DNA of 49,836 nt, taken from the IMG/VR virus record IMGVR_UViG_2563366803_000005, positions 1 to 49,836 of that record; one strand, written 5' to 3'. Source of the stretch: a virus (Duplodnaviria; Heunggongvirae; Uroviricota; Caudoviricetes). Positions 3,950 to 49,513 of this stretch are shown in pieces; position 1 is the stretch's first letter, and each line of letters opens with the position of its first letter. The translations under genes and the position numbers were made by a program. Below the pieces are notes generated by a model. The model was not told the DNA's origin and did not search any database. It saw only the letters and a list, made by a program, of their open reading frames with translations.

Positions 3950-4138
3950 TTATCCAGCCGGTGTTTCGTTATTCAGGTACAGCGATACTTTTTTTACCGG
4001 GAGGCATTCACCAGAAATTTTTTGCTCGTCTCTTGCCTGGAGGCAGGATTCTTTACTGGCATAAATTCCGGTAATCACATTCTGTGATTCACCCGTTATA
4101 AGAAAAACCGTCATCATCAGTGCAAATGCTGAAGTCAT
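3950..4138 (-). CDS. Hypothetical small protein with hydrophobic N-terminus (moron)
   Basis: 62 aa; start overlaps stop of the upstream ORF (ATGA at 4135-4138). N-terminal hydrophobic stretch (TSAFALMMTVFLITG), two Cys. AT-rich region. Confidence 0.35.
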   Translation of the reverse strand: MTSAFALMMTVFLITGESQNVITGIYASKESCLQARDEQKISGECLPVKKVSLYLNNETPAG

Positions 4139-4323
4139 TGACGCTCTCCGAAAATACCAAGTTCAAGAAGAGCAATTCGGGAAAGTATGGAATTATCATT
4201 GAGCAGATAAGGCTCATATTTCCTCATATTAATGGCATCTTCAGTAAACTCCCGGTTACTGAGCAGAACACCAATATCAAAACAACCTTCAGACGTATTA
4301 ACGTTTGGTAATAACGTTTCCAT
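4135..4323 (-). CDS. Hypothetical small protein (moron)
   Basis: 62 aa; GAGG RBS about 9 nt upstream of ATG at 4323; translationally coupled to the next ORF; AT-rich. Confidence 0.4.
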   Translation of the reverse strand: METLLPNVNTSEGCFDIGVLLSNREFTEDAINMRKYEPYLLNDNSILSRIALLELGIFGERQ

Positions 4324-4898
4324 TATCGCGTCCTCAACAATGAATTTTGTGATGCAGTGCCTGGTGCCTCCAGGTGACGTTAACCAGTTAACAATTAACG
4401 CCGGGTTAGTTGATGCTCGTTACGCCAGTAAAAGACCGCCTTACTGCTTTAACTGTTCCGCGTGCGCTCAGCCGCATTCACCGCATCACAAAATTCACTT
4501 TAAAAAGGGCGGCAGAGCAGTCACGGAGTAAAACTGATACCGCCAAACGTCACCAGAAAATTGATAACAGAGGGCGTTGCAGCGGGGTTGTCACTTAAGC
4601 GTATGGTCAACCTGACAACCCGGTGTCCTCAACGGGGGAAGGAATAACCCCGCCATATTTACCGCCGCGCCATTTCGCGGATTGCCACAACCGGAAGCGC
4701 ACGGTCGACGAAAATTTAACGACAGGCTATCTATGAACCAGCTACCTCGCCGTACGCTTTCGCGTTATGGTCTGACTTTTCAGGGAAATATCCTTTCAGT
4801 AAACTGTCAGTGCCGGATTCTTATCCGTGTCCGGCGCACGACCACACGCTGTCACGAGAGGTCTCCATTCTCAACCAGTAACCTCAATGGAGGATAAA

Positions 4899-5093: not shown

Positions 5094-5309
5094 CATTTTT
5101 TTACGGCGTTCATATTCGTTAATATTTATGAAGCCTGTTGCCAGAAGCAGTTCGTTAATTTCATGGTTGTTTGGCTGTTTCTGGCTCTTTGAACTGGGAT
5201 CTTCCACTTCTTTTTCTGCAAATTGTTTTGCTGTATCCTCTGTGCCATGGATATTTAAAGCTGTATCTGAAAACAGCCCAGTAAACGCATCGCGCACATT
5301 GCGAGCCAT
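5082..5309 (-). CDS. Hypothetical protein, possibly the 3' part of a frameshifted gene
   Basis: 75-aa ORF. A separate 54-codon ORF (MEFKDLPPSIQEIAAHTLRHRLNELELESVTKK…) starts at 5419 in a frame offset by one; the two meet at an A6 run (plus-strand T6 at about 5322-5327). Confidence 0.3.
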   Translation of the reverse strand: MARNVRDAFTGLFSDTALNIHGTEDTAKQFAEKEVEDPSSKSQKQPNNHEINELLLATGFININEYERRKKMLSD

Positions 5310-5670: not shown

Positions 5671-5761
5671 ACGCCTCGGGCTGGCTACTTAACCCCTGAC
5701 CACTGCCGGGTAACTCGAAGTATTTCCCTGCGTTCTGTGGGGCGGGGTGGGTTGGTATTTT

Positions 5762-5789
5762 AGTTTAATAAACATTAAACTTAAGTCAA
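5762..5789 (-). promoter_or_regulatory. Candidate leftward early promoter (pL-like)
   Basis: On the minus strand: TTGACT (plus 5784-5789), 16-nt spacer, TAAACT (plus 5762-5767). Flanked by CATTAAAC / AACTAAAC motifs resembling the CACTAAAC repeats at 6759-6824. Confidence 0.3.
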
Positions 5790-5873
5790 GTAAAAACTAA
5801 ACCGCGGGGCATAACAAACACAACGCTTTTGATAAAGTCGTTGCGGTTGTTATGTTTCTATTGGTAGTGAAAG

Positions 5874-6152
5874 TTAGGGAAACTGGCGTCTTGCGTGGAT
5901 CACGTTTACTACTTCAACGCTTGATGTTGTTACGCGGTATAGAATTATATAGTTAGGGTGGGCTACAATCTCACGCAAGCCAGGTACTCTGTCGCTTGGT
6001 GGGTATAAATACGGATGTTCGGATAACGGCAGCACACAACCCCTTAATCGCTGCCATAAGCGTTCAGCCGCATCTATGTCGAAACGAGCAATATAACTAG
6101 TTATATCATCTAGGTCGGTATCTGCGCTTTCAAGCCATAACACGGGTAACAT
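5874..6152 (-). CDS. parE: Type II toxin, ParE/RelE family
   Basis: 92 aa from ATG at 6152 (MLPVLWLESADTDLDDITSYIARFDIDAAERLWQ…HPNYIILYRVTTSSVEVVNVIHARRQFP), ParE-like length and C-terminal pattern. Start lies 1 nt after the antitoxin stop. Confidence 0.75.
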   Translation of the reverse strand: MLPVLWLESADTDLDDITSYIARFDIDAAERLWQRLRGCVLPLSEHPYLYPPSDRVPGLREIVAHPNYIILYRVTTSSVEVVNVIHARRQFP

Positions 6153-6153
6153 T

Positions 6154-6345
6154 TTACTGCTTGCTCCGTTCCTTACGCATCTTAGCAAAGCGTTCTGCCA
6201 TTCTGCGCTCAACTTCGTCATGGGGAATTGCTGGGCGCGGATCTGCAAGGCTCGTTGCTACTTTCGCACGCAGCCATTCGTTGTAACTGTTTTCTTGTTC
6301 AATGGTTTCAAATTCAGAAACCATTGGTGAAAGGGCTCTATTCAT
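6154..6345 (-). CDS. paaA: Small antitoxin (PaaA2-like) of a three-gene regulator-antitoxin-toxin operon
   Basis: 63 aa (MNRALSPMVSEFETIEQENSYNEWLRAKVATSLADPRPAIPHDEVERRMAERFAKMRKERSKQ). GGAGG RBS upstream of ATG 6345. Sits directly upstream of the ParE-like gene; size matches the described 63-residue PaaA2. Confidence 0.65.
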   Translation of the reverse strand: MNRALSPMVSEFETIEQENSYNEWLRAKVATSLADPRPAIPHDEVERRMAERFAKMRKERSKQ

Positions 6346-6365
6346 GTTTCCTCCGGTTTTATAAC

Positions 6366-6737
6366 TCAGGCGCGGCGGCATTTTTGCGCCGCAATCCATC
6401 TCGCTATGAGATCTTCCATTGATTCTTTTTTCTGCTTTAACTCGCTGATTATCTGGCGTTGCTCATCCTCAGGGAAGGCTGAAAAAATCTGCAATAATTC
6501 CAGTTGATTAGACGTTAACCCTGCATGTGGTGGAGAAACCCCCGGTTGTTCTGCGTATTCCGCATCCAGATACCCTTCCGGCATCCCGTATGTTTGCTCT
6601 ATTCTTCTGGCAGCCTTTTCTCCAAACGAGGCTCTCCCACTCATTAGTTGAGATAGGTAGCTCTTCTCTTTGGGTGGCAGAGTTTTATCTTTAAACCACT
6701 CCTTGAGACGTAAACGGCGAATTTCTTTTTTTTGCAT
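6366..6737 (-). CDS. paaR: HTH transcriptional repressor (CI/DicA-like; PaaR-like regulator) in the immunity position
   Basis: 123 aa from ATG 6737 (MQKKEIRRLRLKEWFKDK…). N-terminal HTH and DicA-like C-terminus (…LELLQIFSAFPEDEQRQI…). Divergent from the Cro-like gene across a 97-bp repeat-containing region. Confidence 0.75.
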   Translation of the reverse strand: MQKKEIRRLRLKEWFKDKTLPPKEKSYLSQLMSGRASFGEKAARRIEQTYGMPEGYLDAEYAEQPGVSPPHAGLTSNQLELLQIFSAFPEDEQRQIISELKQKKESMEDLIARWIAAQKCRRA

Positions 6738-6834
6738 GTGGTAATTATCTTTAGTAATCACTAAACAAGCAAATACTTGACTTAATGGTTTATTAAACAC
6801 TAAACTCGCAAAAAAACACTAAACCGAGGAAGGT
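6738..6834. promoter_or_regulatory. Divergent operator/promoter region with three CACTAAAC repeats
   Basis: CACTAAAC at 6759-6766, 6798-6805 and 6817-6824. Candidate rightward promoter TTGACT (6777-6782), 18-nt spacer, TAAACT (6801-6806), its -10 overlapped by repeat 2. RBS GAGGAAGG before ATG 6835. Confidence 0.5.
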
Positions 6835-7137
6835 ATGACATTAAAAGAGTTTATTAAATCATTAAGGGTTGGTGATGCTAAGAAATTCGCGGCCAGACTT
6901 GGTGTATCGCCATCTTACTTATCGCAAATGGCGTCTGGACGAACAGCTATATCTCCAACCCGCGCCCTTATGATCGAATCTGCGACGGAAGGCCAAGTAA
7001 GTAGGGCGGAGCTACGACCCCATGATTGGGAGCTTATTTGGCCTGAGTATGCGAGCGGCATTCGTTTGGGGCAAACACATGTAGTTCATGCTGAAGGTGA
7101 TTGTAGTACATGCTTATCTGATGGAGTTGATTCATGA
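6835..7137 (+). CDS. Cro-like HTH regulator (YdaS-like)
   Basis: 100 aa with HTH (…AARLGVSPSYLSQMASGRTAISP…). First rightward gene, divergent from the repressor. Confidence 0.65.
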   Translation: MTLKEFIKSLRVGDAKKFAARLGVSPSYLSQMASGRTAISPTRALMIESATEGQVSRAELRPHDWELIWPEYASGIRLGQTHVVHAEGDCSTCLSDGVDS

Positions 7138-7559
7138 AAATCAAGCATGAACACATCCGCATGGCGATGAATGTCTGGGCGCATCCGGACGGCGAAAAAG
7201 TACCGGCTGCGAAAATTACCAAAGCGTATTTCGAGCTGGGAATGACGTTCCCGGAACTGTATGACGACAGCCATCCGGAAGCCCTGGCCCGTAATACCCA
7301 GAAAATTTTCCGTTGGCTGGATAAAGACACCCCTGATGCTGTTGAAAAAATGCAGGCTCTGTTACCGGCGATCGAAAAGGCGATGCCGCCTTTGCTGGTG
7401 GCCCGTATGCGCAGCCACAGTTCTGAATATTACCGTGAGATCGTCGAACGGAGGGATCGGCTGGTGAAGGATGTCGATGATTTTGTTGCGTCAGCGGTTG
7501 TTTTGTATGACCAGATGAATCGCGGCGGCCCGGCAGGGAATGCTGTGGTGATGCACTAA
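7134..7559 (+). CDS. CII-like / YdaT-family early regulatory protein
   Basis: 141 aa; ATGA overlap with the Cro-like gene; position and size match YdaT-like proteins in Rac-type prophages. Confidence 0.5.
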   Translation: MKIKHEHIRMAMNVWAHPDGEKVPAAKITKAYFELGMTFPELYDDSHPEALARNTQKIFRWLDKDTPDAVEKMQALLPAIEKAMPPLLVARMRSHSSEYYREIVERRDRLVKDVDDFVASAVVLYDQMNRGGPAGNAVVMH

Positions 7560-7581
7560 AAGCACGGTGTTCGGGGGTTTT

Positions 7582-8544
7582 ATGAGCAGCAAGCTTCATG
7601 GTCTTGTCTGGGAAGGGTGCGCCTTCACCGGCATGATCTTATCCAGGGTGGCGGTTATGGCCCGTCTTGCAGACTACAGCAATGACGAGGGTGTGTCATG
7701 GCCTGCCATTGAAACTATCCGGCGTCAGATCGGTGCAAGAAGTGAATCCACAGTGAAATCGGCTATTGCAGAACTGGCGAAAGAGGGCTGGCTGACGAAG
7801 GAAGAGCGTAAGGTCGGTGGGCGTAATGTAAGCAATATCTATCGGCTTAATGTGGAAAAACTCGAAGCAGCTGCGGCGGCGGCGCGTGAGTCATATAAAC
7901 CGAAAAGAAAAATTAGCCCGGCAAAAAATGACCCGTTAACAGTTGACCCGTCAAATATTGACCCCTCAACGGTTGACCCGTCAAATTTTGATGGATCAAC
8001 TGTTGATAAAAAACTGCCGATTAGGGGGGCGATGATTGACCCCGATCCGTCAGTATTAAAACCTGATCCGTCAGATAAAAGATCTTCTTGTCCGGACGCT
8101 TCGCAACCGGACCCGCAGACGGCTGAACAGGATTTTTTAACCCGACACCCTGACGCGGTTGTGTTCAGTGCGAAAAAACGCCAGTGGGGAAGTCAGGAAG
8201 ATTTGGTGTGCGCACAGTGGATCTGGGGACGAATCGTGAGTCTTTACGAGCAGGCGGCCAGCTATGATGGCGAGATCACTAGACCGAAAGAACCCAACTG
8301 GACAGCATGGGCCAATGACGTTCGCACAATGCGGATGCTGGATGGCAGAACTCACAGACAAATTTGTGAAATGTTTGGGCGTCTCCAGCGGGATTCGTTC
8401 TGGGTAAAAAACATCATGAGTCCGGCAAAACTCCGGGAAAAATGGGATGAACTGGTTATCCGCCTGGGGCGTTCGCCTGCGCAGCGTTGCGTGAATCACA
8501 TTTCTGAACCGGACACTGAAATACCGCCGGGATTCAGGGGGTGA
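7582..8544 (+). CDS. Replication initiation protein (lambda O-like) with internal iterons
   Basis: About 320 aa. N-terminal wHTH-like region; the central peptide repeat DPLTVDPSNIDPSTVDPSNFDGSTVD is encoded by DNA iterons; C-terminal domain. Followed by a DnaC-like loader. Confidence 0.7.
   Translation: MSSKLHGLVWEGCAFTGMILSRVAVMARLADYSNDEGVSWPAIETIRRQIGARSESTVKSAIAELAKEGWLTKEERKVGGRNVSNIYRLNVEKLEAAAAAARESYKPKRKISPAKNDPLTVDPSNIDPSTVDPSNFDGSTVDKKLPIRGAMIDPDPSVLKPDPSDKRSSCPDASQPDPQTAEQDFLTRHPDAVVFSAKKRQWGSQEDLVCAQWIWGRIVSLYEQAASYDGEITRPKEPNWTAWANDVRTMRMLDGRTHRQICEMFGRLQRDSFWVKNIMSPAKLREKWDELVIRLGRSPAQRCVNHISEPDTEIPPGFRG
7929..8080. repeat. Putative replication origin: iterons (TTGACCCNTCAA) within the O-like gene
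   Basis: Direct repeats tgacccgttaac (7929-7940), ttgacccgtcaaat (7943-7956), ttgacccctcaac (7958-7970), ttgacccgtcaaat (7973-7986); further gatccgtcag repeats at about 8036-8075. Confidence 0.55.
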
Positions 8545-8550
8545 CGTGTC

Positions 8551-9297
8551 ATGAAAAACATTGCGGCAGTTGGGGTTCTTGAACGTATTCGCAGACTTGC
8601 ACCACAGGGGTCGGTTCCACCGTACCGGACGGTGGAGGAGTGGCGGGAATGGCAACTTGCTGAAGGACGAAAACGCAGCGAGGAGATTAACCGCCAGAAT
8701 CGCCAGTTGCGGGTGGAAAAAATCCTGAATCGTTCGGGCATCCAGCCTCTGCACAGCAAATGCTCGTTTGCAAATTATCAGGTGCAGAACGACGGGCAAA
8801 AATACGCGCTGAGCCAGGCCAAATCCATAGCTGACGAACTGATGACCGGGTGCACGAATTTTGTGTTCAGCGGTAAAACCGGCACCGGGAAAAATCACCT
8901 TGCAGCGGCGATGGGCAACCGGCTGATGGTGAAGGGGCGCAGCGTGATTATCGTCACCGTGTCTGACGTCATGAGCGTGTTGCATGACAGCTACGACAAC
9001 GGCAAATCCGGGGAAAAATTTTTACAGGAGCTTTGCGGGGTTGATTTGCTGGTCCTGGATGAAATAGGCGTTCAGCGGGAGACGAAAAACGAGCAGGTGG
9101 TATTGCACCAGATAATTGATCGCCGGACAGCATCACTGTGCAGTGTCGGGATGTTAACAAACCTGAATCATGCCGCAATGAGTACGCTTCTTGGTGAGAG
9201 GATTATGGACCGCATGACCATGAACGGTGGTCGATGGGTGACGTTTAACTGGGATAGCTGGCGTCCAAATGTCAGCAATATGAGGGTTGTGAAGTAA
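8551..9297 (+). CDS. DnaC-like replicative helicase loader (AAA+ ATPase)
   Basis: 248 aa. Walker A GKTGTGKNHLAAA, Walker B LLVLDEIG. Immediately downstream of the O-like gene. Confidence 0.85.
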   Translation: MKNIAAVGVLERIRRLAPQGSVPPYRTVEEWREWQLAEGRKRSEEINRQNRQLRVEKILNRSGIQPLHSKCSFANYQVQNDGQKYALSQAKSIADELMTGCTNFVFSGKTGTGKNHLAAAMGNRLMVKGRSVIIVTVSDVMSVLHDSYDNGKSGEKFLQELCGVDLLVLDEIGVQRETKNEQVVLHQIIDRRTASLCSVGMLTNLNHAAMSTLLGERIMDRMTMNGGRWVTFNWDSWRPNVSNMRVVK

Positions 9298-9318
9298 TTT
9301 TGTCCGGAGGAAATTTTA

Positions 9319-10089
9319 ATGGAAACCGTATCTGACGCACTGAAAGCACTGAAAAAAGCCTCTTCACATGTGGTGGCAGCTCGCCTTGGAATCAGTCGTG
9401 AAGAGGCTGTCAACGAGCTGTGGGAACTCAAAAGAAAAGGCGTCGTTGATAAAACTGGTCACACCTGGTTTCTAGCTGGCGAAGGTGAATCCCGGGTAAC
9501 CGAAGAGCGGCCAGTAAAATCTGAAGCACAGGATATGCTGACCGGGGAGGTCGAACAAAAAGTTACCGCAGACATGATGATTGAGTTTATCGGTCAGGAT
9601 GGGGCTAAAACGTGTGAGGAACTGGCGGGTAAGTTCGGTGTCAGTACTCGCAAGGTTGCTTCCACGCTGGCGGTGGTAACCGCAACGGGGCGGCTGGCAC
9701 GCGTTAATCAGAACGGTAAATTTCGTTACTGCATGCCGGGCGATAATTTACCAGCAGAGCCGAAAGCCGCTCTGGTAACGGAAAGTGATGGTAAGGCCTT
9801 TCCTCAGCCAGCAGGTGCTGCGTTACCAGTCCGGGAAGCCGCAACACAGGAAGAAATTAAAACAGAAACTGTGGCGGACATTGTGCAGCCGTTGCCATCG
9901 TTTACCGAAACGCAAGCAGATGAGCTGATTTTTCCGTCCCTTCGCAGGGCAAACCTGGCGCTGCGCAGGGCGAAAAGTGATGTTCAGAAGTGGGAGCGAG
10001 TCTGCGCCGCGCTGCGGGAGCTGAACAAGCACCGGGATATTGTTCGACAGATTACTGATTCTTCCCGCCGTGTTGTATCGGAAAAGTGA
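9319..10089 (+). CDS. Hypothetical protein with two winged-helix-like segments
   Basis: 256 aa; RBS GGAGG upstream; function not recognisable from sequence. Confidence 0.5.
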   Translation: METVSDALKALKKASSHVVAARLGISREEAVNELWELKRKGVVDKTGHTWFLAGEGESRVTEERPVKSEAQDMLTGEVEQKVTADMMIEFIGQDGAKTCEELAGKFGVSTRKVASTLAVVTATGRLARVNQNGKFRYCMPGDNLPAEPKAALVTESDGKAFPQPAGAALPVREAATQEEIKTETVADIVQPLPSFTETQADELIFPSLRRANLALRRAKSDVQKWERVCAALRELNKHRDIVRQITDSSRRVVSEK

Positions 10090-13105: not shown

Positions 13106-13363
13106 ATACAGCGAACGCCATTGGTTTAGTTGGATATTTACTGTGCCGGACAAAAACGGTTTGCGGGGAAATCTTAGTTAAGTAGAATGACTGCGGGTGC
13201 TTGAGGCTATCTGTCTCAGGCATGAACACCAAAAGGCAGATAGAGAAAAGCCCCAGTTAACATTACGCGTCCTGCAAGACGCTTAACATTAATCTGAGGC
13301 CATATCTATGCGACACATAGAGATTAGCCTCTTACGGACCGAAAGGTCAAGGAGAAGCAGGCT

Positions 13364-13519
13364 ATGAAGCAGCAAAAGGCGATGTTAATCGCCCTGATCG
13401 TCATCTGTTTAACCGTCATAATGACGGCACTGGTAACGAGGAAAGACCTCTGCGAGGTACGAATCCGAACCGGCCAGACGGAGGTCACTGTCTTCACAGC
13501 TTACGAACCTGAGGAGTAA
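13364..13519 (+). CDS. hok: Hok/Gef-family type I toxin
   Basis: 51 aa (MKQQKAMLIALIVICLTVIMTALVTRKDLCEVRIRTGQTEVTVFTAYEPEE); Hok pattern with one TM helix and LTRK-x-LCE-x-R motif. A 19-codon upstream ORF (13308-13367) ends in ATGA overlapping the hok start. Confidence 0.8.
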   Translation: MKQQKAMLIALIVICLTVIMTALVTRKDLCEVRIRTGQTEVTVFTAYEPEE

Positions 13520-13586
13520 GAGACCAGGCGGGGGAGAATCCCTCGCCACCTCTGATGTGTCAGGCATCCTCAACGCACCCGCACTT

Positions 13587-16385: not shown

Positions 16386-16756
16386 TGTGGTAAATGGGCG
16401 GCTGGTGGGTGTGGTGGTTGTTGCTTTCCCGTTGCTGAAAAAGAAAACGCCAGACTGTTAGCCGGGTATCAGTTATCTGGAGAAATTTTTAAATACCTCA
16501 CAATTCAGGCGGTTGACTGTTGTCTGGTTTGCGGGGAGTTTGTTAAAAGAAACTGGTATGGTGAATCCCCCTGTGCGGAGGGGCAATCAGCAACTGGTGT
16601 TTTGTCACCGACCCTTATCCTTTCTGTGCGGGTTCAGGTGCTGATACTGAACTCACCGGGAGGCACCCGGCATCATGCAATGGCACATAGCGCCACTCTC
16701 CAGCCCCTCTCCGGAGGGGCTGTTTATATTGATTTTGTCAGATGTGAGTAAACTCC

Positions 16757-17092
16757 TTATGGACTTTGTTGTTTTAGTCCATAAGGACATATTTGCAGAG
16801 TGCAACGGTTATTAAAGCATTCATTCAATACGTTATCTGTATTTGTAGGACATTCCTGGCTGTTTTTGATTAAATTCCAGAATGTTTTATTGAATGGTAC
16901 TACGTTGTAAATGGTTAAAGGTAGCACTTTGTTATTGAGCATGATACCTGTGTGAGTCAGTGTAAATATACTTTCAGGAGGTAAGAAAGCATCCGATTGA
17001 TACCAGATTATTAATTTTATTTTACTCCATATGACTGAAAAAGATATTCCGCATGATGGCTGGATAACTGTATCAATCACAATCCACTTCAT
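16757..17092 (-). CDS. AT-rich antisense moron, hypothetical Cys-containing protein
   Basis: 111 aa; AAGGAAA RBS before ATG 17092. Markedly AT-rich. A perfect 11-bp inverted repeat (16755-16786, CCTTATGGACT…AGTCCATAAGG) spans its stop codon. Confidence 0.45.
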
Positions 17093-17337: not shown

Positions 17338-19314
17338 ATGGTGGAAAGAACCATGGCATTTAAACACTATGATGTTGTCAGGGCGGCATCGCCGTCAGAC
17401 CTTGCGAAACGACTGACACAAAAACTGAAGGAGGGGTGGCAGCCATTTGGCAGTCCGGTGGCCATCACGCCTTATACCCTGATGCAGGCCATTGCGGCGG
17501 AAGGTGATGTCACCACACCTGTGGTGGTGAAGCCGTCGGATGGAGAAGGCGCAGTTATCAGCACCACCAGCAACCCGGAGTATTACTTTGTTGTTGCCCT
17601 GGCCGGGCAGTCAAACGGTATGGCGTATGGTGAAGGGCTTCCGCTGCCGGAGACATATGACCGTCCGGACCCGCGTATTAAACAGCTGGCGCGTCGCAGC
17701 ACTGTCACGCCGGGTGGTGCGTCCTGTAACTACAATGACATTATTCCTGCGGACCACTGCCTGCATGATGTTCAGGATTTGAGTAAGTTTTCACACCCGA
17801 AAGCCAGCGCAGCTCAGTATGGATGCGTGGGGCAGGGATTACATATCGCGAAGAAATTGTTGCCGTTTATTCCGGCGAATGCCGGTATTCTTCTGGTTCC
17901 GTGCTGCCGTGGTGGTTCTGCATTTTTGGCGGGCGATGAAGGTACCTTCAGCGAATCCACCGGCGCAAGCGAGACCTCGGCACGCTGGGGTGTTGATAAG
18001 CCACTGTACAAGGACCTGCTTACCCGTACTCAGGCCGCACTGAAGGCCAACCCTAAAAATATTCTGCTTGCAGTGGTCTGGATGCAGGGCGAGTTTGATT
18101 TGAAACAGGGTGCATACGCCACTCAGCCGGGGCTGTTTGATTCCATGGTGGAAAAATATCGTTCTGACCTGTCGGAATTCGGAGGTCAGTGTCTCGGGGG
18201 CTCTCCGTCATCGGTTCCCTGGATTTGTGGCGACACGACCTACTACTGGAAGCAGACTTATTCTTCGCAATACGATGCGGTGTATGGTGCATACAAGACG
18301 AAATCCGCAAAAAAAATCTTCTTTGTGCCGTTTATGACGGATGAAAACGGGCGAAATGTGGGTACCAACGAGCCGTCAGAAGATCCGGATGTTGCGGATG
18401 TTGGGTATTACGGAGCCGGTGGTCGAACGGACGCCAAAACCTGGACGACGGCCGACCGTAAAACGCATTTTGGATCATGGGCACGTCGTGGGATTATTTC
18501 CGACCGTCTGGCAACGGCGATTCTTGTGCATGCCGGGAGAAACGCTGAATTCATTACCGGAAAACAGCCTGATACGGTGAAGCCCACCGGACCTTCCGGT
18601 GAAGGTACGGAGAGAGAGCCGGAAGCCCCGGTCAGTAACCGAACCCTGATGAGTCTGCTGGCGTCCGGCGAAGACCTGGCATCACAGGGCTGGCGCTATT
18701 ATCACAAACCGGCGAGCGGAGACAATGTTAACAAAAACATTGCTGAAGCGGTGGTCAGTGATGCGGGGGCTACGGGAGGTAAGGCCCTGCAACTGAATAA
18801 ACCGGAAAACCACATCTGGTTTCTGGAGCATGATGCAGCCGGACAGGGAGTGGAGTTACTGAAGAAGGGGGGACGTGTGAGCGTACGGTTTAAGTTGCCG
18901 GGTTCACTGGTGCCGAATCAGTTTGCCCTGGGCATTTACTGGCAGTTGTCGTCCCTGCCGGAGGGAGTGACGCTGGCAGAGGAAGGCAACGACATGCTGA
19001 TGTCCTTCTTCCTGCAGACGGATGCGACGAACCTGAACGCGATGCACCACAAGAAGCCGAATGCGAAGCTGGATACGTTCGGGGTCTTTGATAACGGATG
19101 GCACACACTGGCTTTTGAGTTTGCCGGAAACAACAGCATTCAGGTGACGCCGGTACTGGATGAGAAACGGGGGACGCCGTTCACACTGGTGAAATCTCCG
19201 GCATCAGGGGCGGCGGACAAACTGCAACTGACAGGCATATCAAAGGCGGCGACATATACGCTGCTGATTGACAGTGTGAAGGTGGAAGTGAACAACGCGG
19301 ACATCGCGGCATGA
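17338..19314 (+). CDS. nanS: Prophage sialate O-acetylesterase (NanS-p-like, SGNH/SASA domain) with C-terminal extension
   Basis: 658 aa (alternative start ATG 17353). GQSN motif (…VALAGQSNGMAYGEG…); C-terminal about 250 aa is beta-rich. Occupies the position downstream of Q where such esterases sit in Stx-type prophages. Confidence 0.75.
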   Translation: MVERTMAFKHYDVVRAASPSDLAKRLTQKLKEGWQPFGSPVAITPYTLMQAIAAEGDVTTPVVVKPSDGEGAVISTTSNPEYYFVVALAGQSNGMAYGEGLPLPETYDRPDPRIKQLARRSTVTPGGASCNYNDIIPADHCLHDVQDLSKFSHPKASAAQYGCVGQGLHIAKKLLPFIPANAGILLVPCCRGGSAFLAGDEGTFSESTGASETSARWGVDKPLYKDLLTRTQAALKANPKNILLAVVWMQGEFDLKQGAYATQPGLFDSMVEKYRSDLSEFGGQCLGGSPSSVPWICGDTTYYWKQTYSSQYDAVYGAYKTKSAKKIFFVPFMTDENGRNVGTNEPSEDPDVADVGYYGAGGRTDAKTWTTADRKTHFGSWARRGIISDRLATAILVHAGRNAEFITGKQPDTVKPTGPSGEGTEREPEAPVSNRTLMSLLASGEDLASQGWRYYHKPASGDNVNKNIAEAVVSDAGATGGKALQLNKPENHIWFLEHDAAGQGVELLKKGGRVSVRFKLPGSLVPNQFALGIYWQLSSLPEGVTLAEEGNDMLMSFFLQTDATNLNAMHHKKPNAKLDTFGVFDNGWHTLAFEFAGNNSIQVTPVLDEKRGTPFTLVKSPASGAADKLQLTGISKAATYTLLIDSVKVEVNNADIAA

Positions 19315-43738: not shown

Positions 43739-44338
43739 ATGCGTAAAGTTTGTGCAGCCATTTTGTCCGCAGCCATCTGTCTGTCCGTATCCGGTGCGCC
43801 TGCATGGGCGTCTGAACATCAGTCCACACTGAGCGCGGGGTATCTTCATGCCCGTACGAACGCTCCCGGCAGCGATAATCTGAACGGGATTAACGTGAAA
43901 TACCGTTATGAGTTTACGGACGCGCTGGGGCTGATTACGTCCTTCAGTTATGCCAATGCTGAGGATGAGCAAAAAACGCACTACAGCGATACCCGCTGGC
44001 ATGAAGATTCCGAGCGTAACCGCTGGTTCAGCGTGATGGCAGGGCCGTCTGTACGCGTGAATGAATGGTTCAGCGCGTATGCGATGGCGGGTGTGGCTTA
44101 CAGCCGTGTGTCGACTTTCTCCGGGGATTATCTCCGCGTAACTGACAACAAGGGGAAAACGCACGATGTGCTGACCGGAAGTGATGACGGTCGCCACAGC
44201 AACACGTCTCTGGCGTGGGGGGCTGGCGTGCAGTTTAACCCGACCGAATCCGTAACCATTGACCTTGCTTATGAAGGTTCCGGTAGTGGCGACTGGCGAA
44301 CGGATGCATTTATTGTTGGTATCGGATACCGTTTCTGA
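43739..44338 (+). CDS. lom: Outer-membrane protein Lom (Ail/PagC/Lom family)
   Basis: 199 aa; signal peptide and beta-barrel pattern ending …IVGIGYRF. Confidence 0.85.
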   Translation: MRKVCAAILSAAICLSVSGAPAWASEHQSTLSAGYLHARTNAPGSDNLNGINVKYRYEFTDALGLITSFSYANAEDEQKTHYSDTRWHEDSERNRWFSVMAGPSVRVNEWFSAYAMAGVAYSRVSTFSGDYLRVTDNKGKTHDVLTGSDDGRHSNTSLAWGAGVQFNPTESVTIDLAYEGSGSGDWRTDAFIVGIGYRF

Positions 44339-44442: not shown

Positions 44443-44476
44443 AAGCCCGTGGCGTCACTGCTGCGGGCTTTTTTGT
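44443..44476 (+). terminator. Rho-independent terminator after lom
   Basis: AGCCCG-loop-CGGGCT followed by T6. Confidence 0.55.
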
Positions 44477-44477
44477 G

Positions 44478-45185
44478 CACAGAAAACCCCCAGCTAGGCT
44501 GGGGGTTCCGGAAAGCTTTCAGCTTTAAGCCAGTTATTAAAACCCCTTTTGATTTGTTAAAACACCTTGCGGTCTGGCAACTGCAAGTGTCAAACAAGAA
44601 ATCAAAAGGGGGTCCCAATGGGGAACGAAAAGAGCTTAGCGCACACCCGATGGAACTGTAAATATCACATAGTTTTTGCGCCAAAATACCGAAGACAGGT
44701 GTTCTACAGAGAGAAGCGTAGAGCAATAGGCAGTATTTTGAGAAAGCTGTGTGAGTGGAAAAGTGTACGGATTCTGGAAGCTGAATGCTGTGCAGATCAT
44801 ATCCATATGCTTGTGGAGATCCCGCCCAAAATGAGCGTATCCGGCTTTATGGGATATCTGAAAGGGAAAAGCAGTCTGATGCTTTACGAGCAGTTTGGTG
44901 ATTTGAAATTCAAATACAGGAACAGGGAGTTCTGGTGCAGAGGGTACTACGTCGATACGGTGGGTAAGAACACGGCGAAGATACAGGATTACATAAAGCA
45001 CCAGCTTGAAGAGGATAAAATGGGAGAGCAGTTATCGATTCCCTATCCGGGCAGCCCGTTTACGGGCCGTAAGTAACGAAGTTGGATGCAAATGTCAGAT
45101 CGTGTGCGCCTGTTAGGGCGCGGCTGGTAAGAGAGCCTTATAGGCGCATTTGAAAAACCTCCGGCTATGCCGGAGGATATTTATT
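44478..45185 (+). mobile_element. IS200-family insertion sequence (about 0.7 kb, boundaries approximate)
   Basis: Single tnpA gene flanked by terminal hairpins: left CCCCCAGC-TAG-GCTGGGGG (44487-44505), right CCTCCGG-CTATG-CCGGAGG (45158-45176). Lies between lom and stf. Confidence 0.6.
44618..45076 (+). CDS. tnpA: IS200/IS605-family transposase TnpA (Y1 HUH)
   Basis: 152 aa (MGNEKSLAHTRWNCKYHIVFAPKYRR…HIHMLVEIPP…RNREFWCRGYYVDTVG…); HxH and catalytic Tyr motifs. Confidence 0.85.
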   Translation: MGNEKSLAHTRWNCKYHIVFAPKYRRQVFYREKRRAIGSILRKLCEWKSVRILEAECCADHIHMLVEIPPKMSVSGFMGYLKGKSSLMLYEQFGDLKFKYRNREFWCRGYYVDTVGKNTAKIQDYIKHQLEEDKMGEQLSIPYPGSPFTGRK

Positions 45186-48200: not shown

Positions 48201-48206
48201 GCATAA
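45201..48206 (+). CDS. stf: Side tail fibre protein (lambda Stf-like)
   Basis: 1001 aa from ATG 45201 ([26 protein letters not shown]…). Long Ala/Ser/Thr-rich repeat region (…AAKTSETNA…) and C-terminal GAHTHS-type repeats ending …[11 protein letters not shown]. Confidence 0.85.
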
Positions 48207-48790
48207 TGGCATTCAGAATGAGTGAACAAGCACGGACCATAAAAATTTATAATCTGCTGGCCGGAACTAATGAATTTATTGGTGAAGGTGACGCATATAT
48301 TCCGCCTCATACAGGTCTGCCAGCAAACAGTACCGATATTGCACCACCAGATATTCCTGCTGGCTTTGTGGCTGTTTTCAACAGTGATGAGGCATCGTGG
48401 CATCTCGTTGAAGACCATCGGGGTAAAACGGTTTATGACGTAGCGTCAGGGGACGAGTTATTTATTTCTGAACTCGGTCCGTTACCGGAAAATGTTACCT
48501 GGTTATCGCCGGAAGGGGAGTTTCAGAAGTGGAACGGCACAGCCTGGGTGAAGGATACGGAAGCAGAAAAACTGTTCCGGATCCGGGAGGCGGAAGAAAC
48601 AAAAAACAACCTGATGCAGGTAGCCAGTGAGCATATTGCGCCGCTTCAGGATGCTGCAGATCTGGAAATTGCAACGGAGGAAGAAACCTCATTGCTGGAA
48701 GCCTGGAAAAAGTATCGGGTGTTGCTGAACCGTGTTGATACATCAACTGCACCTGATATTGAGTGGCCTACGAACCCTGTCAGGGAGTAA
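48206..48790 (+). CDS. tfa: Tail fibre assembly protein (Tfa)
   Basis: 194 aa; ATG overlaps the stf stop; Tfa-like C-terminus (…[45 protein letters not shown]…). Confidence 0.85.
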
Positions 48791-48844: not shown

Positions 48845-49513
48845 CTATTTTTTCCCTGAAGCGGAAAACATTACTACAGTACCTTGAACCTTGGTTTTAA
48901 CATTCTCGAAATGCTCTGAGAGTATATGTGTTAAGCCTTCTTCGGAATCTTTTGTGTTTGAAAAGATGCCTTTCTGATTGTAAATGCGCATCAGTTTTTG
49001 ACCGAAGCTATTGTGCACAACTCCATCGCCAAGAATTGTGGCTCCGTATAGAGTTCCATCGTCAGTTAAGGCCTGCGCCGCATTGCGTATTACACAGCTT
49101 TTTGTAGATATATTTCCAGGCAGGCAGTGAAGAAGGTAAAACATGGAAATGGAATCAAATTGACCATGTAACGCCGCGGGATAAGGTTCAAAAACATCAT
49201 GGCTAATTTTATGTTTAATTTTTGATTCCCCAGCCCTTGTAGATGCCGCGTTCAGGCTAGCTTCGTTCAAATCCATTAAAGATATCAGACTACTCTCAGG
49301 TACGTGAGTAAGGTAAAACCCAGTTCCAACACCAATATCCAGATGGTTGTTACCTACATGTTCCAGAAAGTGTGGAAGAAGGTGTTCCTTTGTAGGACAT
49401 CCCCATGCAAGCCGATTTGATACTCCCAAAACCCACCAGTCATAAAGCTTTAGGGTAAGTGGTGTGTAAATTTTAGCCCCATCATCTGTGTTTTTTTTCA
49501 TTGATTTCACCAT
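48845..49513 (-). CDS. Class I SAM-dependent methyltransferase (cargo gene)
   Basis: 222 aa (or start at MKKNTDD, 49501). Motif I LDIGVGTGFY, post-I acidic residue (…ISLMDLNEASL), motif II-like DSISMFYLLHCLP. AT-rich; opposite strand to the tail genes. Confidence 0.65.
   Translation of the reverse strand: MVKSMKKNTDDGAKIYTPLTLKLYDWWVLGVSNRLAWGCPTKEHLLPHFLEHVGNNHLDIGVGTGFYLTHVPESSLISLMDLNEASLNAASTRAGESKIKHKISHDVFEPYPAALHGQFDSISMFYLLHCLPGNISTKSCVIRNAAQALTDDGTLYGATILGDGVVHNSFGQKLMRIYNQKGIFSNTKDSEEGLTHILSEHFENVKTKVQGTVVMFSASGKK

What the first reader, a model, noticed from the sequence alone, without database searches (positions are those of the whole stretch)
5874..6737. Immunity repressor co-operonic with a PaaA2/ParE-like toxin-antitoxin pair
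The CI/DicA-like repressor (6737-6366) is followed on the same strand by a 63-aa antitoxin and a 92-aa ParE-family toxin (1-nt intergenic gap), divergent from the Cro-like gene. This matches the three-component paaR-paaA-parE arrangement described in E. coli O157 prophages and occupies the position where lambda carries rexAB in the cI operon. The regulator may double as the prophage repressor, coupling lysogeny to an addiction or abortive-infection module.
Basis: partly seen in the sequence, partly recalled or inferred. Interest (0 to 1): 0.55.

Follow-up and report, generated by a model that had tools for sequence, protein, structure and literature searches.

The report
Known PaaR2-PaaA2-ParE2 prophage immunity module

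Summary
Three minus-strand genes lie head to tail: a 123-aa regulator (6737-6366), a 63-aa antitoxin (6345-6154) and a 92-aa toxin (6152-5874, 1-nt gap). They diverge from a Cro-like gene across a 97-bp spacer.

They are not merely PaaR/PaaA/ParE-like. ParE2 and PaaA2 are 100% identical to the crystallised E. coli O157:H7 proteins (PDB 5CW7, 3ZBE). PaaR2 matches Sakai Sp12 at 122/123 residues. The neighbouring YdaT and YdaS are 100% and 99% identical to PDB 8BT1 and 8C7K. From 5758 to 7600 the DNA differs from Sp12 at 4 bases.

- a repressor doubling as the CI analogue;
- the toxin-antitoxin pair in the rexAB position;
- an addiction role.

Those papers report leaderless paaR2, EMSA and DNase footprints on the 97-bp region, PL/OL, bistability and plasmid stabilisation.

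The cassette is intact in 595 of 5426 complete E. coli genomes and in the isolated phage Evi. An abortive-infection or exclusion role is not addressed in that paper.

Verdict: real, correctly read, already known, low interest.

The parts
5874..6152 (-). parE2, 92-aa ParE-family toxin
   Evidence: 100% identical over 92 aa to PDB 5cw7_B/5cze. Pfam ParE_toxin PF05016, 1.9e-16.
6154..6345 (-). paaA2, 63-aa antitoxin without a DNA-binding domain
   Evidence: Residues 2-63 are 100% identical to PDB 3zbe/5cw7 'PAAA2'. Pfam PaaA2 PF21217, 1e-19. One base separates it from parE2.
6366..6737 (-). paaR2, 123-aa repressor and CI analogue, leaderless
   Evidence: Residues 1-66 are identical to PDB 7nkv/8c3k/8c3l 'Phage repressor protein CI'. 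It is 122/123 identical to Sakai ECs_2279, with V67 here and G67 there. No Pfam hit and no S24 peptidase domain. The N-terminus MQKKE was confirmed by protein sequencing in PMC8630535.
6738..6834 (.). 97-bp OR region carrying the divergent PRM and PR promoters and the repeated operators
   Evidence: PR is TTGACT-18-TAAACT at 6777-6806 (+). CACTAAAC occurs three times, at 6759, 6798 and 6817. Direct and inverted repeats D1 and I2 lie here. I read PRM by eye as TTGCTT (6772-6767), a 17-nt spacer and GATAAT (6749-6744), which places +1 at the A of the ATG at 6737. The region is identical to Sakai Sp12. EMSA and footprints are reported in PMC8630535.
6835..7137 (+). ydaS, 100-aa Cro analogue
   Evidence: 99/100 identical to PDB 8c7k 'Phage antirepressor protein Cro', with T92 here and A92 there. 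Pfam YdaS_toxin and HTH_3.
7134..7559 (+). ydaT, 141-aa CII analogue
   Evidence: Residues 2-141 are 100% identical to PDB 8bt1. Pfam YdaT_toxin.
7127..7144 (.). YdaT operator OM (TTGATTCATGAAAATCAA) at the ydaS/ydaT junction, in the PRE region
   Evidence: This is the only exact match to TTGATTN6AATCAA in the window. The motif and its position are described in PMC9986795.
5759..5807 (-). PL promoter and OL operators downstream of parE2
   Evidence: PL is TTGACT-16-TAAACT at 5789-5762 (-), with the same hexamers as PR. Inverted repeats I1 and I4 pair 5763-5792 with 6774-6798, and direct repeat D2 pairs 5787-5807 with 6809-6829. PL933P and OL1-3 are reported as repressed by PaaR2 and YdaS in PMC8630535.
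5810..5854 (-). Hairpin between the parE2 stop and PL, a probable terminator of the paaR2-paaA2-parE2 transcript (by analogy with lambda t_imm; inferred)
   Evidence: Inverted repeat I3 has 21-nt arms and a 3-nt loop. The RNA fold gives -21.3 kcal/mol, z = -3.8, and 0 of 200 shuffles fold as well; the stem is followed by GGUUUAGUUUUU. The terminator scan did not call it. The word 'terminator' does not occur in PMC8630535.

Best explanation
This is the immunity region of a CP-933P/Sp12-type lambdoid prophage.

PaaR2 is the CI analogue. It has an N-terminal HTH, forms octamers, and lacks a RecA-cleavable peptidase domain. It is made from a leaderless PRM transcript that also carries paaA2 and parE2. 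PaaR2 binds the repeated operators in the 97-bp OR region and a matching OL/PL site about 1 kb away, just beyond parE2. In doing so it represses the rightward ydaS-ydaT operon (Cro and CII analogues) and the leftward PL operon, which here leads to DicF and dicB. At low levels it stimulates its own promoter. YdaS competes for the same operators, which gives a bistable switch. YdaT activates a PRE-like promoter at the ydaS/ydaT junction.

PaaA2 has no DNA-binding domain. It is protease-labile (ClpAP/ClpXP) and neutralises the ParE2 toxin in a tight complex. Because the pair depends on the prophage repressor's promoter, losing or replacing the immunity cassette frees ParE2 and kills the cell. This is addiction, or stabilisation of the immunity region.

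What is shown here: gene order, sequence identities, operators and promoters.
What is shown in the literature for the same sequence: DNA binding, repression, bistability, toxicity and plasmid stabilisation.
What is inferred: that PaaR2 maintains lysogeny of this particular, apparently intact prophage; that PL drives DicF and dicB; and that the hairpin at 5810-5854 is a terminator.
For: - Protein identity to the characterised O157:H7 proteins: ParE2 100%, PaaA2 100%, PaaR2 122/123, YdaT 100%, YdaS 99/100.
- DNA from 5758 to 7600 differs from Sakai Sp12 at only 4 positions, and the 97-bp operator region is identical.
- PR and PL have identical hexamers. The OL and OR repeats are found. The YdaT operator matches exactly.
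- Published experiments on this sequence cover the leaderless start, EMSA and footprints, reporter repression of PRM, PR and PL, YdaT activation of PRE, bistability and mini-F stabilisation (PMC8630535). The YdaT operator and the statement that the pair replaces rexAB are in PMC9986795.
- Sakai's own annotation names the genes 'phage repressor protein CI' and 'phage antirepressor protein Cro'.
- The cassette is intact in 595 of 5426 complete E. coli genomes, 579 of them at 99% identity or more.
- It is also present in the isolated coliphage Evi, with all three ORFs intact.
Against: - PaaR2 has no S24 peptidase domain and no Pfam hit. The way a prophage with this repressor is induced is unknown.
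- All regulatory experiments used a cryptic prophage's region on plasmids. Maintenance of lysogeny or superinfection immunity by PaaR2 has not been shown with a live phage.
- The paper found no ParE2 activity (SOS response) in either transcriptional state. The toxin-antitoxin pair therefore seems uncoupled from the switch itself.
- The molecular target of ParE2 is not established.
Confidence: 0.93

Rival explanations
1. Rex-like defence. Like lambda rexAB, which sits in the same position, the lysogen-expressed PaaA2-ParE2 pair acts as an abortive-infection or exclusion system. Infection by another phage would shut off host or prophage transcription or trigger proteolysis, the labile PaaA2 would decay, and ParE2 would kill the cell before the invader replicates.
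For: - The pair occupies the rexAB position and is co-transcribed with the repressor.
- PaaA2 is degraded by ClpAP and ClpXP.
- The cassette is very widespread and conserved, in 595 of 5426 genomes.
- It is carried by a plaque-forming phage, Evi.
- From general knowledge, several type II and III toxin-antitoxin systems act in abortive infection.
Against: - None of the five proteins matches a PADLOC defence model, apart from a marginal HTH hit for YdaS.
- PMC8630535 reports no phage-challenge data; the words 'abortive', 'superinfection' and 'exclusion' do not occur in it.
- My literature search found no report of ParE2-mediated defence.
- The only demonstrated phenotype is post-segregational killing.
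Confidence: 0.12
2. Split antitoxin. PaaR2 is only the detached DNA-binding half of a conventional three-part toxin-antitoxin module that inserted next to a Cro-like gene. It is not the prophage's repressor.
For: - The system was first described as a three-component toxin-antitoxin module (Hallez 2010, cited).
- PaaA2 lacks a DNA-binding domain, and the authors discuss the split-antitoxin idea.
- PGAP annotates PaaR2 only as 'hypothetical protein'.
Against: - PaaR2 primarily represses ydaS-ydaT (PR) and a distant PL with matching operators, and it is leaderless like cI.
- No other CI-like repressor gene appears in the PGAP annotation of the near-identical prophage.
- Related phages have a conventional cI in this slot, next to a related cII/ydaT (H19 and H20).
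Confidence: 0.04

Closest known systems
paaR2-paaA2-parE2 (RAE2) with ydaS-ydaT, the immunity region of E. coli O157:H7 cryptic prophage CP-933P (EDL933) / Sp12 (Sakai)
   Same: Gene order, spacing, operators and promoters are the same. ParE2, PaaA2 and YdaT are identical; PaaR2 is 122/123 and YdaS 99/100 identical. There are 4 nucleotide differences over 5758-7600.
   Different: - The prophage backbone differs. Here the element sits beside potC with an intact 372-aa integrase and an apparently complete set of lambda-like structural genes. Sp12 sits beside ynfA with a pseudogenised integrase.
- Similarity to Sp12 falls to 75-85% in the P-like gene from about 8800, and is patchy left of 5594.
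- There are two amino-acid polymorphisms: PaaR2 V67 (G in Sakai) and YdaS T92 (A in Sakai).
Bacteriophage lambda immunity region (cI-rexA-rexB, OR/OL, cro, cII)
   Same: - A leaderless repressor gene is transcribed leftward from PRM with two passenger genes.
- PR drives cro-like and cII-like genes divergently.
- Multiple operators lie at OR, and a second set lies at PL about 1 kb away.
- The repressor forms octamers, and a hairpin lies between the last passenger gene and PL.

   Different: - There is no sequence homology between PaaR2, YdaS, YdaT and CI, Cro, CII.
- PaaR2 lacks the S24 autocleavage domain.
- There are four 18-bp inverted repeats rather than three operators.
- The passengers are a ParE-type toxin-antitoxin pair, not RexAB.
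Qin (dicA-dicC, dicF, dicB) and Rac (racR-ydaS-ydaT) immunity regions of E. coli K-12
   Same: A small non-cleavable repressor diverges from a YdaS/DicC-type Cro analogue. YdaT follows YdaS as in Rac. The leftward operon carries DicF RNA and dicB as in Qin.
   Different: Per the paper, YdaS and YdaT are only 26% and 31% identical to the Rac proteins. As far as I recall, neither K-12 region carries a toxin-antitoxin pair behind the repressor.
Canonical parDE type II toxin-antitoxin systems (RK2 ParDE, Vibrio cholerae ParDE2, Caulobacter ParDE1)
   Same: The toxin has the ParE fold, with weak sequence hits to 3kxe, 6x0a and 5ceg. A labile antitoxin wraps the toxin, and the system gives plasmid stabilisation.
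   Different: The antitoxin has no DNA-binding domain. Autoregulation is handed to a separate regulator, which is the prophage repressor. The ParE2 target is not shown to be gyrase.

Membership tests
PaaR-PaaA-ParE three-component toxin-antitoxin system (Hallez 2010) | Three co-oriented genes in the order regulator, antitoxin, toxin, with minimal spacing | tested here: met
   6737-6366, 6345-6154 and 6152-5874 on the minus strand, with gaps of 20 nt and 1 nt.
PaaR-PaaA-ParE three-component toxin-antitoxin system (Hallez 2010) | Toxin of the ParE family and fold | tested here: met
   92/92 identical to the crystallised ParE2 (5cw7_B). Pfam PF05016, 60.9 bits against a cut-off of 23.
PaaR-PaaA-ParE three-component toxin-antitoxin system (Hallez 2010) | PaaA-type antitoxin without a DNA-binding domain | tested here: met
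   Identical to PaaA2 in 3zbe/5cw7. Pfam PF21217, 70.7 bits against a cut-off of 27, with no HTH, RHH or AbrB hit.
PaaR-PaaA-ParE three-component toxin-antitoxin system (Hallez 2010) | PaaR regulator encoded first in the operon | tested here: met
   122/123 identical to Sakai ECs_2279. Residues 1-66 are identical to 7nkv/8c3k.
PaaR-PaaA-ParE three-component toxin-antitoxin system (Hallez 2010) | Toxicity of ParE2, neutralisation by PaaA2, and repression by PaaR2 | not testable with these tools
   Reported for the identical proteins in Hallez 2010 and PMC8630535.
Lambdoid immunity switch (functional class: CI/Cro/CII with OR and OL) | Divergent PRM/PR with shared repeated operators, plus a second operator set at PL | tested here: met
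   PR at 6777-6806 and PL at 5789-5762 share TTGACT and TAAACT. OR and OL repeats are found. The sequence is identical to the footprinted CP-933P region.
Lambda CI / LexA-type repressor family (sequence family) | C-terminal S24 peptidase domain allowing RecA-stimulated autocleavage | tested here: not met
   The 123-aa protein has no Pfam family at E <= 0.01. The authors also state that it lacks the peptidase motif. It works like CI but is not a member of the CI family.
RexAB-type prophage abortive-infection system | Homology to RexA/RexB or a demonstrated exclusion phenotype | tested here: not met
   The proteins belong to the ParE and PaaA2 families and have no PADLOC hit. Only the genomic position is shared. 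The phenotype is not testable here.

The most novel reading that the evidence does not exclude
Here, unlike in the cryptic CP-933P, the module sits in an apparently complete prophage with an intact integrase, and it also occurs in the plaque-forming phage Evi. The pair might therefore do more than addiction in a live temperate phage. It could act as a Rex-like exclusion or abortive-infection system. Alternatively it could act as a checkpoint that punishes replacement of the immunity cassette by heteroimmune recombinants. The sharp block of about 99.5-100% identity (5758 to about 8600) shared between unrelated prophage backbones would fit a cassette that spreads and is protected as a unit.
Probability: 0.15. 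Interest if true: 0.5.

Novelty: already known. Interest (0 to 1): 0.08.

Why it matters
As a discovery it matters little. The locus, its regulation, four of its five proteins' structures (for PaaR2 only the N-terminal domain matched a PDB entry) and the 'repressor plus toxin-antitoxin in the rexAB slot' idea are all published for essentially the same sequence.

Its practical value is modest. The characterised immunity cassette also occurs in apparently intact prophages of B2/ST131-type E. coli, and in about 11% of complete E. coli genomes. It also occurs in an isolated phage. These give natural systems for questions the cryptic CP-933P could not answer. The open questions are true immunity, the induction route of a non-cleavable repressor, and any exclusion phenotype.

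Tried and rejected
- I looked for an SOS-controlled antirepressor that could explain induction of a non-cleavable repressor. CTGTN8ACAG gives 3 sites against 0.56 expected, and 3 of 100 shuffles reach that count. The site at 5261-5276 lies inside small leftward ORFs, and no antirepressor-like gene is annotated in the near-identical prophage. I treat it as probably chance and did not pursue it.
- The PADLOC scan of the five immunity proteins gave no defence-system match.
- A literature search for ParE2 or ParE-type defence in prophages found nothing specific to this system.
- The simple terminator scan does not call the hairpin at 5810-5854. Only folding supports it, so I label it as inferred.
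- I did not use the large protein or metagenome searches or structure prediction. Identity to solved structures made them unnecessary.

Full report
**Observation**

The ORF list and raw sequence show three consecutive minus-strand genes, exactly as described.
- A 123-aa protein from the ATG at 6737 to the stop at 6366-6368.
- A 63-aa protein at 6345-6154, preceded by GGAGG.
- A 92-aa protein at 6152-5874, whose ATG lies one base after the previous stop codon.

A 100-aa HTH protein (6835-7137) is transcribed divergently across a 97-bp spacer (6738-6834). A 141-aa ORF (7134-7559) overlaps its end.

**Identity**

Sequence searches against the PDB settle what these genes are.
- The 92-aa protein is 92/92 identical to ParE2 of E. 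coli O157:H7 (5cw7_B, 5cze).
- The 63-aa protein is identical to PaaA2 (3zbe, 5cw7).
- The first 66 residues of the regulator are identical to the deposited N-terminal domain called 'Phage repressor protein CI' (7nkv, 8c3k, 8c3l).
- The full regulator is 122/123 identical to Sakai ECs_2279, with V67 here and G67 there.
- The divergent genes encode YdaS (99/100 to 8c7k) and YdaT (100% to 8bt1).
- Pfam agrees: PaaA2 PF21217, ParE_toxin PF05016, YdaS_toxin/HTH_3 and YdaT_toxin. The regulator has no Pfam hit and no S24 peptidase domain.

At the DNA level, window 5758-7600 differs from prophage Sp12 of O157:H7 Sakai at four positions: 5809, 6175, 6538 and 7108. The 97-bp intergenic region is identical. 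Sakai annotates these genes as 'phage repressor protein CI' and 'phage antirepressor protein Cro' inside 'prophage Sp12, lambda-like phage'.

**Regulatory anatomy seen here**

- The promoter scan finds PR (TTGACT-18-TAAACT, 6777-6806, +). It also finds a leftward promoter with the same hexamers just beyond parE2 (TTGACT-16-TAAACT, 5789-5762, -).
- The repeat search pairs 5763-5792 with 6774-6798, and 5787-5807 with 6809-6829. This is an OL/PL copy of OR/PR about 1 kb away.
- CACTAAAC occurs only three times in the window, all inside the 97-bp spacer.
- Reading the minus strand by eye, PRM is TTGCTT, a 17-nt spacer and GATAAT (6772-6744). This places +1 on the A of the paaR2 ATG and fits a leaderless mRNA.
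- The published YdaT operator TTGATTN6AATCAA occurs once exactly, at 7127-7144 on the ydaS/ydaT junction.
- A strong hairpin lies between the parE2 stop and PL (5810-5854; -21.3 kcal/mol, z = -3.8). It is followed by a U-rich stretch. I infer that it terminates the operon as t_imm does in lambda. The simple terminator scan did not call it, and the mBio paper does not mention a terminator.

**What is already known**

Jurenas et al. 2021 (PMC8630535) studied this region from CP-933P, which the paper describes as identical to Sp12. They report the following.
- paaR2 is leaderless. This rests on 5' RACE, the N-terminal sequence MQKKE and the intact mass.
- PaaR2 and YdaS both bind the 97-bp spacer, shown by EMSA and by DNase I footprints of about 78 and 65 bp.
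- The spacer holds four 18-bp inverted repeats (consensus GTTTAGTAA) and three pseudo-symmetric operators.
- Both regulators repress PRM, PR and a PL933P promoter with OL1-3 beyond parE2. Low PaaR2 levels stimulate PRM.
- YdaT activates a PRE-like promoter.
- The locus is bistable.
- The whole region stabilises a mini-F plasmid as well as ccdAB does.
- No SOS induction accompanies either transcriptional state.

[quoted passage not shown] Prolic-Kalinsek et al. 2023 (PMC9986795) define the YdaT operator. [quoted passage not shown]

The original three-component description, the toxicity and the ClpAP/ClpXP lability of PaaA2 are attributed to Hallez et al. 2010.

**Context in this window**

The window is a lambdoid prophage of about 50 kb. 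It starts with a 372-aa integrase ORF (1-1119, -).
- The early region carries excisionase, a RecE-like exonuclease, dicB, DicF RNA, the immunity region, O-like and DnaC-like replication genes and a Q-type antiterminator.
- The late region carries lysis genes and a complete-looking lambda-like head and tail set, running to J, lom and tail fibres.

It is 99.7% identical to a prophage beside potC in E. coli C7, and is present in ST131 and Ecol_745 strains. Sp12, by contrast, lies beside ynfA and has a pseudogenised integrase. Identity to Sp12 is about 99.5-100% from 5758 to about 8600. It falls to 75-85% in the P-like gene and is patchy to the left. The immunity and O block is thus a mosaic module shared between different backbones.

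The 864-bp cassette is intact in 595 of 5426 complete E. coli genomes, 579 of them at 99% identity or more. Another 38 genomes have a partial or more distant match; the three listed cover only the toxin-antitoxin part. The coliphage Evi (LR597642) was isolated from infant stool. It carries the cassette with all three ORFs intact. Other phages keep the flanks and a related cII/ydaT but have a different cI in the slot.

**Mechanism and rivals**

The best-supported account is the published one: a CI-like switch in which the repressor's transcript also carries a labile-antitoxin, stable-toxin pair, giving addiction to the immunity cassette (confidence about 0.93).

The Rex-like abortive-infection reading is not excluded, but nothing here or in the literature I could search supports it. 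The proteins have no PADLOC hit. The key paper has no phage-challenge data. A targeted literature search found nothing specific.

The 'mere split antitoxin' reading is disfavoured for three reasons. PaaR2 controls PR and PL. It is leaderless like cI. It is the only repressor-like gene in the slot.

Open points are how a repressor without an autocleavage domain is inactivated, and what ParE2 targets.

**Verdict**

The feature is real, precisely located and correctly interpreted, but it is an already characterised system. Novelty is 'already known' and interest is low.

Noticed in passing
window 44475-45180: An IS200-family element sits between lom (43739-44338) and the tail-fibre gene. The ORF at 44567-45076 hits Y1_Tnp at 5e-38, and Rfam STnc490 matches 44485-44608. 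The insertion is absent from the otherwise 99.7% identical prophage of strain C7.
   Followed up: partly
window 4507-4558 (-) and 4135-4323 (-): DicF sRNA (Rfam, 76.7 bits) and dicB lie downstream of the PaaR2/YdaS-controlled PL promoter. The PL operon, described in the mBio paper as having no assignable ORFs just downstream, probably leads to these cell-division inhibitors, as in Qin.
   Followed up: partly
window 5810-5854 (-): A stable hairpin (-21.3 kcal/mol, z = -3.8) with a U-rich tail lies between the parE2 stop and PL. It is a likely t_imm-like terminator of the paaR2-paaA2-parE2 transcript and is not mentioned in the key paper.
   Followed up: partly
window 6538 and 7108: There are two amino-acid polymorphisms relative to O157:H7 Sakai. 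PaaR2 has V67 (G in Sakai), after the last residue matching the crystallised N-terminal domain. YdaS has T92 (A in Sakai), in the C-terminal tail.
   Followed up: yes
window 5758 to about 8600 versus L004 (Sakai Sp12): A block of about 99.5-100% identity (OL to the O-like gene) is shared between two different prophage backbones. Identity falls to 75-85% at 8800-9500, and homology to the left of 5594 is patchy. The immunity and O module behaves as a mosaic unit.
   Followed up: partly
window 13195-13520: A hok/sok type I toxin-antitoxin locus is present. Rfam sok matches 13195-13366. hokD is annotated in the near-identical C7 prophage at the position corresponding to window 13365-13520.
   Followed up: no
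window 16527-17092: STnc100 sRNA (Rfam, 131.7 bits, +) lies next to a 111-aa minus-strand ORF. That ORF is annotated as anti-adapter IraM in the near-identical prophage.
   Followed up: no
window 48549-48747 (+): Rfam family IS009 matches at 225 bits, within the tail-fibre assembly gene region (48206-48790).
   Followed up: no
window 5261-5276: A LexA-box-like CTGTATCTGAAAACAG lies inside the small leftward ORFs downstream of PL. The window has 3 such sites against 0.56 expected (3 of 100 shuffles reach that count), so this is probably chance. It would matter if an SOS-controlled antirepressor existed here.
   Followed up: partly
window 17338-19314 and 48845-49513 (-): Two cargo-type genes are present. 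One is a 658-aa SASA-family carbohydrate esterase with DUF1737 and DUF6645 domains, upstream of the lysis genes. The other is a class I SAM-dependent methyltransferase after the tail-fibre genes.
   Followed up: no
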